From Lytechinus pictus (taxonomy: Eukaryota), in assembly GCF_037042905.1 (NCBI RefSeq), contig NC_087247.1:19344001-19408000 (forward strand): a DNA stretch of 64,000 bases. Reading direction: 5' to 3'. Made by a program: the position numbers. Positions within the stretch are counted from its first letter, which is position 1. Each line of letters starts with the position of its first letter. This document shows, one piece after another, positions 51,001 through 54,000 of this stretch.

Positions 51001-54000
51001 TTACTGGTATTTATTAACATTTTCGGAATTTCGGAGCCGGGGCGTTCTAATGACCCCCCCCCCCCCCTCCCTCCATGACCACCGTTTCGCGATGTATGAT
51101 TCTTCGTATTTTAGTAGTAAACTTTTTTATACAAAACTTTAATTTTGTGTTAGATTTTGAAATAAAATTCAGAAAATGTTATCACATTCCACGCTCTTTT
51201 CTTTCCCGGTTTCAACCTTTTCTTGGTCTCGAAACTTTGGGGGTCCATGTCCCGTGCCCCACCCCATCTGTCTGCTTTGGATGAAGGGTGAACTATCCTG
51301 CAAAGTTCAACGGGTTTAGAGGAGAGGGCGCGCCACAGATTATCTGAGAAGATCGTATCATGGACCTGTAGTCGATCCATGATCGTATTGATTCCTTTCT
51401 GTGATCGGCGTATCAATTTGATAAAGATCAGGGCTTTCCCCAAGATTTTTACAAATAAGTCTTAAAAACATCAAGTTGTTTTTACCCATTAAACTATTTG
51501 CAAAATATATGAGATAAATATTTCATCTACATAATTAGTTTTAGCGTTGACAAAACTTTCTCACTCTCTATAACAGTCCTACATTAACCATTACATACAT
51601 GAACAACAAAACAGATGCAGTGCAAAGTTGCACAATCTTGCTTCATTCTAATATCCAAGAGCTATCACAAAGCCATATTACTTAAGGCAAAGGTAAAGTT
51701 TAACCTACAAAAAGGGCTATATTTCCCAATTGATCAATCGTGATCCTCAATCAGTAATTGTTATTAACATTTTGGCATAGTTTTGTAAGCCGTATTATAC
51801 AGGACGCAAAAAATGGAATCATCCTACTAAAGGTGACTAAGACACACGGTGTTTGTAAGTACACTGCCATCTGCAGAAGCAGATACTTGGACAGACGGAA
51901 GTACGCTAGAGGATGTCTCCACTTCGTGTTTAAAGACAGGATCGTGGCTTGATCGGGAACAGATAAAGATGCCTTTGAGTGCTTTACGTACGAAACCCTG
52001 GATTCCTGGCAGTGTAGATGAAAGGATTCACGCACGAGTTGAAGTAAGCCAGGTTTTGGAAGGAACGTTGCAGTGGACTCCGATGGTAATTCCTGGTAGT
52101 GCTGAACCCCATACTTACGCAGAAGTAGGCAATCTGAGACGGTGCCCAGCAAATGATGAATACAACTATGACAATAAGCATCATCTTGAGAACGCGAGTA
52201 CGAGCTTTAAGATGATTTGATCGCTTACCAGCTGTGACCGATCCTTCTGTTAGGATCTTGGAGAAATGTTGGGCCTCTCGGTAAAGTTTCTTGGCTATTA
52301 GAATTTGGGTGAGAAGGATAAATACAGTAGGCAAACCAATGCGAAGACAGAGGATGTAAGCAGCATAGGCCATGTCGCCTTCGACGGAAAATCCTCTGCG
52401 AACGCACCGTCCAGTGAGGTCTTTAACATAGAACACAAAGATGCCCCTGCTTCCTGCGAGCATGAACGTCAACCAAACAAGAGCTGTACAAATATACGCT
52501 CGCCGCTTTGTGACCATGCGATTGAAAATGACAGGATGGACAACCGCGAAGTAGCGGTCGAAACATATGGCGACAAGTTGATAAGAAGATACTGTGATTA
52601 GCATCCATTGTAACATAGGAGAAGAGATGAAGATACAATAGAGACGTCCCGCAACACTCGAAGGCATTGTTTGAGCTTTCGGGTGGGGAATCATCACGAT
52701 GGATAACAAGAAATCTGCAAGGGCTAGATTGCCCACCAGGATGTCAGTGGAGCGTCTGGAGGATTTCTTCCAGAACACCACAAGGATGACTAGGAAGTTC
52801 CCCAGTATCCCAAGAATCGCATAAACCATCTGTAAGATGACCCACCAAGGCCATTCCATTGTTGACCAAGACCATTGAAATAAAGTCTTTGGTTGCATTT
52901 CTTCGGAGCGGTCTTCCTCGTAAGTATAATTTAATAAAAAGTCGGAGGAGAGATCATCGTTGCTTAAAACATTTGAAATTGTGGTGAAGATGAATTCGTT
53001 TGGTCGACCCGTTGATTCTTTGCCAGTGCTATGTGCGAATGGACTTGATCCTGGAGAGGCCGATGTTCCTCCGAGACGAAGCGTTGATTTGTTTGTGGCC
53101 AGGGATTCATCTTTAACCAACACCAGGTAGATAATTGTGGAATAGAATTTGAAATTCATCTTCAATCATGGTAAAATACGTCCTCCTGATGAAATAAAAA
53201 AGAAAAATAATATTAAAAAGATAATTTCATTTCTTAGCTCGAATGAAAATCTTTATAAACAAGACACCGATATCCAATTTCGGGGATCGTTTCTGTTTGT
53301 TGTAATTAATTTCATAACACTTCTTTCAGGGCCGTAGCCAGAAGCATTTTGTTGGGGGGTGTACCAGCTAAATTTGCCAACTAAATTTGGCGTGACCGCG
53401 CCAACGTGAGCACAGGGGAGTCTGATGGGGGATGTGCCCCCCCCCCCACAATAATCACATGCTAAAAGATTTTGAATTTTTAAAATTGAATTAGTGGCAT
53501 TTGGTGAATACTTTAAGGTAAATTATACAAAGATATTTGCACTTTAAAAATGAACATTTTGGATCAAAATAGAAAGGCTAGTGTGCCGTAGTTGCTAACT
53601 TGCAGTATAATGATATACCCTATGCATTAATAATATCAAAATCAAAGATTTGTTAATTTTTAATTGACCTTAATTCTGTGCAAGATGTCTCAACTAAAAT
53701 TTCAAGAGTGCTACTGCTAACAGTGGCGTACAGTGGGTCACGGCATGGGGGGGGGGCACCAGCAAAAATTTAGAGTCATTAAGTGGGCGCGCGAAGCGCG
53801 CTCAATTGCCAGGTATACTGACCTGATAGAGACATTTTAAGGACTGTGCCATTAAACGGATATGTATCTTAATGATCAAATAATGCGAGCGCGAAGTGCG
53901 AGCTGAAAATGTTCTATATTCAGTCCTAAAAAGGGACATTATAAGCAAGTTTTGTAATCATGATACGTACCTGTCTTACAAAACAAACAATGCGAGCGCG

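What the first reader, a model, noticed from the sequence alone, without database searches (positions are those of the whole stretch)
51900..53000. Cassette-like mosaic receptors: copies 5 and 1 are patchworks of the two specificity types
Seen: copy 5 is copy-3-like but has a copy-4 tract at ~52659-52791 (WKKSS, LALAD, PHPKA, including silent sites), copy-4 bases at 51919 and ~52028, and copy-2 states in the N-terminus (TTISN, NYTYEED). Copy 1 has a 2/3-type TM3-TM5 but 4-type ICL3 (KPSIH), ECL3 (AKMxFGTARNY) and tail (VFGHEV). Inference: short-tract gene conversion recombines loop modules combinatorially, which would diversify the receptor repertoire.
Basis: partly seen in the sequence, partly recalled or inferred. 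Interest (0 to 1): 0.65.

Follow-up and report, generated by a model that had tools for sequence, protein, structure and literature searches.

The report
Gene-conversion patchwork in tandem receptor genes
Five neighbouring copies of an orphan cell-surface receptor gene have swapped stretches of DNA with one another, an ordinary process in tandem gene families, and the two most patchworked copies look broken rather than newly useful.

Summary
The window holds five intronless class-A GPCR paralogues on the minus strand (c1-c5) in a hierarchically duplicated tandem array. The central observation holds. At 101 sites where c4 differs from c2=c3, c5 carries c4's base at 10. Nine of these are consecutive (52770-52659), inside 166 bp of perfect c4=c5 identity (52811-52646). 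None of 500,000 shuffles gave such a run. Three of the nine are silent, so DNA was transferred; this is not protein convergence.

The single c4-like bases (51919, 52029) and the two c2-like bases (52978, 52927) exist but are only marginally beyond chance.

Copy 1 is a mosaic, but not as proposed. Its TM3-TM5 region was overwritten by the c2/c3/c5 type (3/380 mismatches, no silent differences). Its last third is equally far from both types (24 and 23 of 367), with no tract structure.

Both mosaics look defective. c5 has a 4-bp duplication and an early stop. c1 is split by a 3.6-kb insertion and carries a stop and frameshifts.

Verdict: ordinary interlocus gene conversion and unequal exchange, mostly homogenising. 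An assembly chimera cannot be excluded here.

The parts
51984..53159 (-). Copy 5 (c5): class-A GPCR ORF of 391 aa, c3-like (B type), truncated. Homologous coding sequence continues out of frame to about 51824.
   Evidence: ORF list; Pfam 7tm_1 E=9.4e-40; blastn of the c4 CDS covers 53159-51824 at 94.7%.
52646..52811 (-). Converted tract in c5, maximal extent: 166 bp identical to c4 41674-41839. The minimal extent 52659-52770 holds 9 consecutive c4-diagnostic sites.
51989..51992 (-). 4-bp tandem duplication (CGTA) in c5, absent from the four other copies. It shifts the frame and creates the stop at 51984-51986.
40856..42187 (-). Copy 4 (c4): intact 443-aa receptor and the only A-type body in the window. 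It, or an unseen A-type copy, is the donor of the tract (41674-41839).
24661..25989 (-). Copy 3 (c3): intact 442-aa B-type receptor. It is the positional twin of c5 in the duplicated two-gene unit.
10944..12257 (-). Copy 2 (c2): 437-aa receptor. It has an A-type upstream flank, but its body and proximal 3' flank (9605-12423) are B type, so it is a hybrid locus.
810..2116 (-). Copy 1 (c1), main piece: a 361-aa ORF from an internal Met (810-1895), plus a decayed N-terminal region. That region has an in-frame stop, a 2-bp insertion and a 30-bp deletion.
1300..1865 (-). Segment of c1 homogenised with the c2/c3/c5 type. The core 1300-1680 has 3/380 mismatches to c3 and no silent differences; 1680-1865 has 6/185.
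5746..5795 (-). Detached 5' end of c1: the ATG plus about 15 codons, preceded by an A-type upstream flank (5744-7122, 88-92% to the c2/c4 flanks).
2117..5745 (.). About 3.6 kb inserted into c1 at codon 15/16. It has terminal inverted repeats (21-nt arms, 90% complementary, including the duplicated TTAA) and no long ORF.
45940..55266 (.). Block of the second two-gene unit that holds c5. It is 97.9% identical to 18755-28110, which holds c3, and gives the background for the c3/c5 comparison.

Best explanation
The window holds part of a tandem array of an orphan class-A GPCR, built by nested duplication. A one-gene unit duplicated into an A unit and a B unit (about 94-96% identical). The [A,B] pair then duplicated into [c2,c3] and [c4,c5] (98-99%). 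An older unit holding c1 lies to the left (88-92%). Ectopic homologous recombination has since moved sequence between the copies.

Shown:
(i) A 112-166-bp tract of A-type sequence, identical to c4, replaced the B-type sequence in c5. This is a short non-reciprocal interlocus gene conversion, with c4 or an unseen A-type copy as donor.
(ii) The core of c1 (TM1/TM2 to TM5, about 380-590 bp) was overwritten by B-type sequence.
(iii) The 5' 480 bp of c2-c5 (proximal promoter plus codons 1-116) is homogenised.

Inferred:
(iv) The body and proximal 3' flank of c2, which sits at an A position, were replaced by B-type sequence. This happened through a long conversion or an unequal crossover between an A and a B gene.
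(v) The two c2-like sites in c5's N-terminus and the isolated c4-like sites may be further micro-tracts or parallel mutations.

The mechanism is ordinary repair of a break using a misaligned paralogue as template. Its outcome here is mainly homogenisation. The two conspicuous mosaics, c1 and c5, are probably pseudogenes, so nothing shows that the process has added working receptors.
For: Array structure: self-BLAST gives blocks 18755-28110/45940-55266 (97.9%), 32942-38557/58050-63652 (99.3%) and 16442-18754/43546-45863 (99.0%). A-to-B unit matches run 94-96%, and the left-hand unit 88-92%.

c5 tract: 9 consecutive c4-type sites among 101 ordered sites, with 0 of 500,000 shuffles reaching that run, and 166 bp of perfect c4=c5 identity. 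The GENECONV-like test gave p=5e-5 and the PHI-like test p=6e-5. There are 11 mismatches to c3 in 150 bp against a 1.09% background. Three silent sites were co-transferred. c4 keeps its own type, so the event was non-reciprocal. In the tract tree c4 and c5 are identical and separate from c1, c2 and c3.

c1: mismatches to c3 are 36/274, 6/185, 3/380 and 24/367 along the gene (Fisher p=1.2e-9). In codons 170-290 there are 0 synonymous differences over 85.7 synonymous sites, against dS=0.215 in the N-terminal region.

5' homogenisation: c3 and c4 differ at 9/480 sites there, against 72/984 in the rest of the CDS and 57/906 in the 3' flank (Fisher p=5.9e-6).

c2 hybrid: its upstream flank aligns only with c4's, while its body and 3' flank follow c3/c5 past the point where c4 stops aligning.

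Defects: c5 4-bp duplication. c1 insertion with a TTAA duplication and inverted ends. c1 in-frame stop and 2-bp insertion.
Against: No reads, other individuals or related species could be examined. Whether the mosaic haplotypes exist on single molecules is therefore untested. The window has three N gaps, two at matching places in the two units, and 98-99% identical 25-kb repeats, which is a hard region to assemble.

A second divergence peak between the c3 and c5 blocks (10 mismatches per 150 bp at about 53980-54010) shows the tract is not the only outlier. I attribute that peak to a local duplicated segment being aligned to the wrong copy, but I did not test this.

Twenty c2=c4 versus c3=c5 sites are scattered through the c2 body. 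These fit a B-type donor that predates the c3/c5 split. They equally allow more complicated histories.

The direction c4 to c5 rests on parsimony only.

Apart from the 4-bp duplication, c5 has no other lesion. If that duplication is a sequencing error, c5 would be an intact chimeric receptor.
Confidence: 0.75

Rival explanations
1. Assembly or consensus chimera. The mosaic in c5, and perhaps in c1, was produced when reads from near-identical paralogues were mixed during assembly or polishing, and does not exist on any chromosome.
For: The units are 98-99% identical over about 25 kb. There are three N gaps of 283, 212 and 156 bases, two of them at matching positions in the two units. The c5 frameshift is a 4-bp duplication that could also be an error.
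Against: The tract is one clean block of 9 consecutive diagnostic sites, not a per-site mix. Its junctions are tight: c4-type 52659 and c3-type 52645 lie 14 bp apart, and 52812 and 52770 lie 42 bp apart. Any single read would span each junction, and a read of about 170 bp would span the whole tract (inference). The other 91 diagnostic sites in c5 are consistently c3 type except 51919. The array also shows older exchanges, such as the c1 core amid 13% diverged flanks, that assembly mixing would not produce.
Confidence: 0.15
2. Short-tract conversion acts as a combinatorial shuffler of loop modules between two specificity types, and is maintained because it diversifies a working receptor repertoire.
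For: Two receptor types do exist. c3 and c4 differ at 45 residues, concentrated in the approximate outer half (26/148 against 17/194, Fisher p=0.02) and most densely in ECL3 (8/18). One A-into-B tract changes five residues in ICL1, TM2 and ECL1. Partitioned conversion that leaves ligand-contact regions diverse has been proposed for bird gamma-c odorant receptors (bioRxiv 10.1101/2025.11.14.688425, passages read).
Against: There is only one robust short tract among four young copies. It spans a helix and parts of two loops, not a module. The recipient c5 is frameshifted, and c1 is interrupted and decayed. c1's sharing with c4 has no tract structure. dN/dS between the types is 0.62 overall and at most 0.90 in any segment, so positive selection is not shown. 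Coding divergence (7.3%) is about the same as 3'-flank divergence (6.3%). Most of the exchanges homogenise.
Confidence: 0.07
3. No transfer at all. The shared states arose by parallel mutation or convergent selection on the protein.
For: This is plausible for the isolated sites: 51919, the three-state silent site 52029, and 52978/52927. The expected number of parallel sites is 0.075 for the c4/c5 pattern and 0.174 for the c2/c5 pattern in 2368 columns.
Against: For the tract it would need nine independent identical changes in 112 bp, three of them silent. For c1 it would need 0 synonymous differences over 85.7 synonymous sites.
Confidence: 0.02

Closest known systems
Interlocus (ectopic) gene conversion among clustered chemosensory GPCR genes, for example bird gamma-c odorant receptors (bioRxiv 10.1101/2025.11.14.688425; passages read)
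   Same: Intronless class-A GPCR paralogues in genomic clusters. The genes are mosaics of homogenised and still-diverse subregions, similarity extends to silent positions, and detection uses GENECONV-type runs of identity.
   Different: Here there are only five copies of an orphan, peptide-receptor-like GPCR of unknown taxon and unknown expression. One short diversifying tract sits amid mostly homogenising events. The two most mosaic copies are damaged. No cross-species or functional data exist.
Interlocus gene conversion in segmental duplications (PMC4467073; passages read)
   Same: Unidirectional transfer of short stretches between highly identical paralogous segments. The signature is a longer-than-expected stretch of perfect identity between paralogues.
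   Different: That work uses human population variation. Here a single assembled haplotype is all there is, so polymorphism and rate cannot be assessed.
Hybrid genes from unequal crossing-over in tandem receptor arrays, such as the primate L/M opsin array (recalled; no call)
   Same: c2 has one type's upstream flank and the other type's body and 3' flank. This is the layout an unequal crossover between neighbouring paralogues gives.
   Different: The junction cannot be placed, because the 5' 480 bp is homogenised in all four copies. A long conversion explains c2 equally well.
Tandem arrays of lineage-specific rhodopsin-type GPCRs taken as candidate chemoreceptors in marine invertebrates (PMC5442662, passages read; review PMC11526382, passages read)
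   Same: Clustered, closely related class-A GPCR genes with conserved helices and variable outer parts.
   Different: Membership is untested: no expression data, no named orthologue and no taxon for this window. The best solved-structure matches are peptide and amine receptors at about 86 bits.

Membership tests
Class A (rhodopsin-family) GPCR | Match to the Pfam 7tm_1 profile above its curated cut-off | tested here: met
   3 of 5 copies were scanned (c4, c5, c1): E=4.8e-41, 9.4e-40 and 2.2e-36, at 126-141 bits against a cut-off of 30.5.
Class A (rhodopsin-family) GPCR | Signature motifs at the ends of TM3, TM6 and TM7: DRY, CWxP and NPxxY (motif names recalled) | tested here: met
   FDRY, CWAP and NPFIY are invariant in all five copies in alignment A1.
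Class A (rhodopsin-family) GPCR | Seven transmembrane helices | tested here: inconclusive
   The hydropathy scan found six peaks above threshold; the seventh helix is inferred from the NPFIY motif.
A named peptide-receptor subfamily (cholecystokinin, bombesin and similar) | Clear orthology-level similarity to a characterised receptor | tested here: not met
   The best solved-structure hit is the cholecystokinin A receptor at 86 bits, E=2.6e-23. Amine, opioid and other peptide receptors score within about 10 bits. The Atlas neighbours are a mix of families.
Interlocus gene conversion (short tract) | Run of donor-type states at consecutive diagnostic sites, with recipient-type states on both sides, beyond chance | tested here: met
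   9 consecutive sites of 101, flanked by c3-type sites at 52812 and 52645. 0 of 500,000 permutations reached that run; p=5e-5.
Interlocus gene conversion (short tract) | Silent sites move with replacement sites (DNA-level transfer) | tested here: met
   K131, A146 and S167 are synonymous changes within the tract.
Interlocus gene conversion (short tract) | Non-reciprocal: the donor keeps its own sequence | tested here: met
   c4 carries A-type states through and beyond the tract, and no c3-type block appears in c4.
Interlocus gene conversion (short tract) | The mosaic exists in phase on single DNA molecules | not testable with these tools
   No reads and no second assembly.
Programmed cassette-type diversification (silent donor archive feeding an expressed acceptor, as in mosaic surface-antigen genes; PMC13233330, search listing only) | An intact, expressed acceptor gene receiving many independent tracts | tested here: not met
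   There is one robust short tract. The acceptor c5 is frameshifted. Expression is untested.

The most novel reading that the evidence does not exclude
The A and B receptor types are kept distinct by selection on their outer, ligand-facing half, while recurrent germline micro-conversion between neighbouring copies continually produces chimeric alleles that segregate in the population. Damaged copies serve as sequence reservoirs in this process. In this reading the c5 frameshift is an assembly error or a recent allele, and intact A/B chimeras with altered ligand response or coupling exist in other individuals. That would make the array a natural module-swapping system for an invertebrate-type orphan GPCR.
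Probability: 0.05. Interest if true: 0.55.

Novelty: new member of a known kind. Interest (0 to 1): 0.2.

Why it matters
If the assembly is right, this locus is a compact worked example of how tandem receptor genes evolve. It shows nested duplication, followed by several exchanges of different length and age. These include a pseudogene whose seven-helix core was refreshed by a working neighbour, and a short tract that moved five amino-acid changes from one receptor type into the other.

This matters in practice for anyone building gene trees, dating duplications or testing selection in this family. Different segments of the same gene give different trees, so whole-gene analyses would mislead.

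It does not open a new question. Gene conversion among clustered receptor genes is well documented.

Tried and rejected
1. Positive selection as the cause of the two types. Nei-Gojobori dN/dS between c3 and c4 is 0.62 overall and 0.90 in codons 170-290, never clearly above 1. Coding and 3'-flank divergence are similar. Selection is not shown.

2. c4-to-c1 conversion of ICL3, ECL3 and the tail. The runs test gave 12 runs for 12+12 sites, P=0.42. I rejected these as a tract signal.

3. Biased gene conversion. The tract changes are AT-to-GC 5, GC-to-AT 3 and other 2, so there is no bias.

4. Further copies or fragments in the window as alternative donors. blastn and tblastn with c4 found only the five copies. 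The array probably continues past 64000, since 39259-39611 matches 63648-64000 at 99.7%, so unseen donors remain possible.

5. Taxon and family leads. Rfam found nothing at gathering thresholds. The Atlas holds the c4 protein letter for letter but gave only generic GPCR neighbours. I did not pursue its source.

I used hydropathy and motifs instead, so the topology is approximate.

7. A transposase in the c1 insertion: no ORF of 110 aa or more. No family search was run on the short ORFs.

8. Not checked because closed or unsuitable: protein homology searches, and the metagenome and viral collections. Genome contigs holds only bacteria and archaea, and the phage, plasmid and E. coli collections are irrelevant, so none of these was used.

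9. Literature searches run. None was aimed at this particular locus, so I make no claim that it is unpublished.
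Full report
WHAT IS THERE

The window carries five intronless open reading frames on the minus strand:
- c1, 810-1895, 361 aa
- c2, 10944-12257, 437 aa
- c3, 24661-25989, 442 aa
- c4, 40856-42187, 443 aa
- c5, 51984-53159, 391 aa

The three copies I scanned (c4, c5, c1) match Pfam 7tm_1 at E=4.8e-41, 9.4e-40 and 2.2e-36. All five keep FDRY, CWAP and NPFIY. The nearest solved structures are peptide and amine receptors, at only about 86 bits; the cholecystokinin A receptor is best at E=2.6e-23. These are therefore orphan class-A GPCRs without a named orthologue, and I do not take the contig for human. 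blastn and tblastn with c4 find no further copies in the window. Three N runs (28127-28409, 30172-30383, 55281-55436) were left untouched. The coding sequences are single ORFs, so no spliced model was needed. The two pieces of c1 described below were examined separately and not joined.

ARRAY ARCHITECTURE

Self-comparison (87 matches of 300 bp or more) shows nested duplication.
- Young pair of units. Unit [c2,c3] and unit [c4,c5] match at 97.9% (18755-28110 / 45940-55266), 99.3% (32942-38557 / 58050-63652) and 99.0% (16442-18754 / 43546-45863).
- Within a unit. The c2/c4-position half (A) and the c3/c5-position half (B) match each other at about 94-96%.
- Older unit. The leftmost 9.6 kb, holding c1, matches at 88-92%.
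- Array end. 39259-39611 matches 63648-64000 at 99.7%, so the array probably continues beyond the window.
- The anomaly. The c2/c4 block is only 93.8% identical (9970-13240 / 39863-43170).

A four-way alignment explains the anomaly. c2 shares its upstream flank with c4. Its body and 3' flank follow c3/c5, and they do so beyond the point where c4 stops aligning. c2 is thus a hybrid locus, and c4 is the only copy in the window with an A-type body.

COPY 5

In the block where all four young copies align there are 2368 ungapped columns. Counts by pattern:
- c4-private: 91
- c2=c4 against c3=c5: 20, scattered throughout
- c2-private: 13
- c3-private: 13
- c2=c3 against c4=c5: 10
- c5-private: 4
- more than two states: 3
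- c2=c5 against c3=c4: 2

Nine of the ten c4=c5 sites are consecutive, at 52770, 52767, 52764, 52722, 52717, 52684, 52678, 52677 and 52659. The tenth is 51919.

Taking the 101 ordered sites where c4 differs from c2=c3, none of 500,000 shuffles gave a run of nine. A GENECONV-like test gave p=5e-5 for the c4-c5 pair, against p=0.30 for c2-c4 and p=0.20 for c3-c4. A PHI-like statistic gave p=6e-5.

c4 and c5 are identical for 166 bp (c5 52811-52646), and c3 differs from c5 at 11 sites there. The background between the c3 and c5 blocks is 101 mismatches in 9289 bp. That call also showed a second peak, 10 mismatches per 150 bp near 53980-54010. I attribute it to a locally duplicated 1.7-kb segment, present twice in the first unit, being aligned to the less similar copy. 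I did not test this.

The tract changes five residues: C130W, N132K, V148A, R159H and S161K. It carries three silent changes, at K131, A146 and S167. Convergence on the protein therefore cannot explain it. By hydropathy and motifs it runs from the end of TM1 through ICL1 and TM2 into the start of ECL1 (approximate topology).

The remaining claims for c5 are true as bases but weak as evidence.
- 51919 (Q413E) is one isolated site, against 0.075 expected from parallel hits.
- 52029 is a three-state silent Val site.
- 52978 (S61I) and 52927 (F78Y) are shared with c2. They are adjacent among 32 informative sites (P=0.0625), against 0.174 expected parallel sites.
- The D in NYTYEED only reflects a c3-private change.

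A 4-bp tandem duplication at 51989-51992, absent from the other four copies, shifts the frame. It stops the protein eight residues after the Y of NPFIY, removing the segment after TM7 and the tail. The out-of-frame remainder is still nearly identical to c3. The lesion is therefore recent, or it is an error.

COPY 1

Mismatches along the gene:

| Segment | c1 vs c3 | c1 vs c4 |
|---|---|---|
| N-terminal region | 36/274 | 34/274 |
| TM1 to ECL1 | 6/185 | 15/185 |
| TM3 to TM5 | 3/380 | 30/380 |
| ICL3 to tail | 24/367 | 23/367 |

For c1 against c3, the TM3-TM5 segment compared with the N-terminal and ICL3-tail segments gives Fisher p=1.2e-9. In codons 170-290, c1 and c3 have no synonymous difference over 85.7 synonymous sites. 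In the N-terminal region dS is 0.215. The core of c1 was therefore overwritten at the DNA level by the c2/c3/c5 type.

In the last third, c1 shares 12 sites with c4 against the B type, while c4 has 12 private sites and c1 has 8. The shared and private sites interleave (12 runs, P=0.42). The segment tree has the split (c1,c4)|(c2,c3,c5), with long end branches to c1 (0.026) and c4 (0.043). With three lineages that is the only split available. It says that the B lineage changed, not that c1 received c4 sequence. The residues KPSIH, AKM.FGTARNY and VFGHEV are present, but they do not show '4-type modules'.

c1 is also broken. Its ATG and first 15 codons, with an A-type upstream flank, lie at 5795-5746. 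They are separated from the rest by about 3.6 kb (2117-5745). This insertion is bounded by inverted ends (21-nt arms, 90% complementary) and a duplicated TTAA, and it has no long ORF. A TTAA duplication is typical of piggyBac-type elements (recalled, not tested). The N-terminal region has an in-frame stop, a 2-bp insertion and a 30-bp deletion. The tail is frameshifted. The 361-aa ORF from an internal Met probably survives because the core was recently refreshed.

OTHER EXCHANGES

c3 and c4 differ at 9/480 sites in the 5' flank plus codons 1-116. They differ at 72/984 in the rest of the CDS and 57/906 in the 3' flank (Fisher p=5.9e-6). The 5' part has therefore been homogenised across both types. 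The A/B coding divergence is about what the non-coding flank shows.

dN/dS between c3 and c4 is 0.62 overall and 0.90 in codons 170-290. This indicates relaxed or mixed constraint, and positive selection is not demonstrated. The 45 residue differences lean to the approximate outer half (26/148 against 17/194, Fisher p=0.02). They are densest in ECL3 (8/18), with none in TM6. That makes two ligand specificities plausible but untested.

MECHANISM AND RIVALS

The best account is ectopic homologous recombination in a tandem array. It comprises one short non-reciprocal conversion of A-type sequence into c5, longer B-type replacements in c1 and c2, and homogenisation of the 5' part. For c2, an unequal crossover is equally possible.

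The main rival is an assembly or consensus chimera. The repeats are 98-99% identical and there are gaps. The tract, however, is a clean block whose junction sites lie 14 and 42 bp apart, so any read would span a junction. I put this rival at about 0.15, but it cannot be tested here.

It lacks support because there is one robust tract, its boundaries are not modular, the recipients are damaged, and the net trend is homogenising.

COMPARISON WITH WHAT IS KNOWN

Gene conversion among clustered receptor genes is established.
- Bird gamma-c odorant receptors are described as mosaics of homogenised and diverse subregions, detected with GENECONV and with silent-site similarity (bioRxiv 10.1101/2025.11.14.688425, passages read).
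- Short unidirectional transfers and stretches of perfect identity are the known signature in human segmental duplications (PMC4467073, passages read).
- Tandem arrays of lineage-specific rhodopsin-type receptors are common in marine invertebrates (PMC5442662, passages; review PMC11526382, passages).

This locus is a further instance of that kind.

WHAT STAYED UNCHECKED

- Reads, other individuals and related species.
- Supplementary data of the papers cited.

VERDICT

This is an ordinary process seen in a new locus, and interest is low.

Noticed in passing
window 2117-5745 (with 5746-5795 and 2112-2116): Copy 1 is split at codon 15/16 by an insertion of about 3.6 kb with inverted ends and a duplicated TTAA. 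It has no long ORF, so it looks like a non-autonomous cut-and-paste element. A piggyBac-type target site is recalled knowledge, not tested.
   Followed up: partly
window 13643-16442: A 2.8-kb stretch present upstream of c2 but absent at the matching place upstream of c4. It consists largely of two inverted arms of about 2.1 kb (13881-16008 against 16275-14152, 89.5%), like a foldback-type insertion.
   Followed up: no
window 22740-23351 and 49898-50509: A 0.6-kb self-complementary element (76% to its own reverse complement) lies downstream of c3 and c5. It is missing from the matching place downstream of c2.
   Followed up: no
window 26442-30171 and 53604-55280: A 1.7-kb segment is present twice in the first unit (95.7% between the two copies), with an N gap between them. 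It is present once in the second unit (99.3% to the second copy). N gaps sit at matching positions in both units (28127-28409 / 55281-55436), which suggests a sequence that is hard to assemble.
   Followed up: no
window 10944-10946 (c2 stop): c2 ends five to six codons earlier than c3 and c4. At the same codon c3 has Cys, c4 has Arg and c2 has a stop. This probably has little effect.
   Followed up: no
window 39259-39611 and 63648-64000: These match at 99.7% at the very end of the window. The two-gene repeat probably continues past 64000, with at least one more receptor copy that could be a donor.
   Followed up: no
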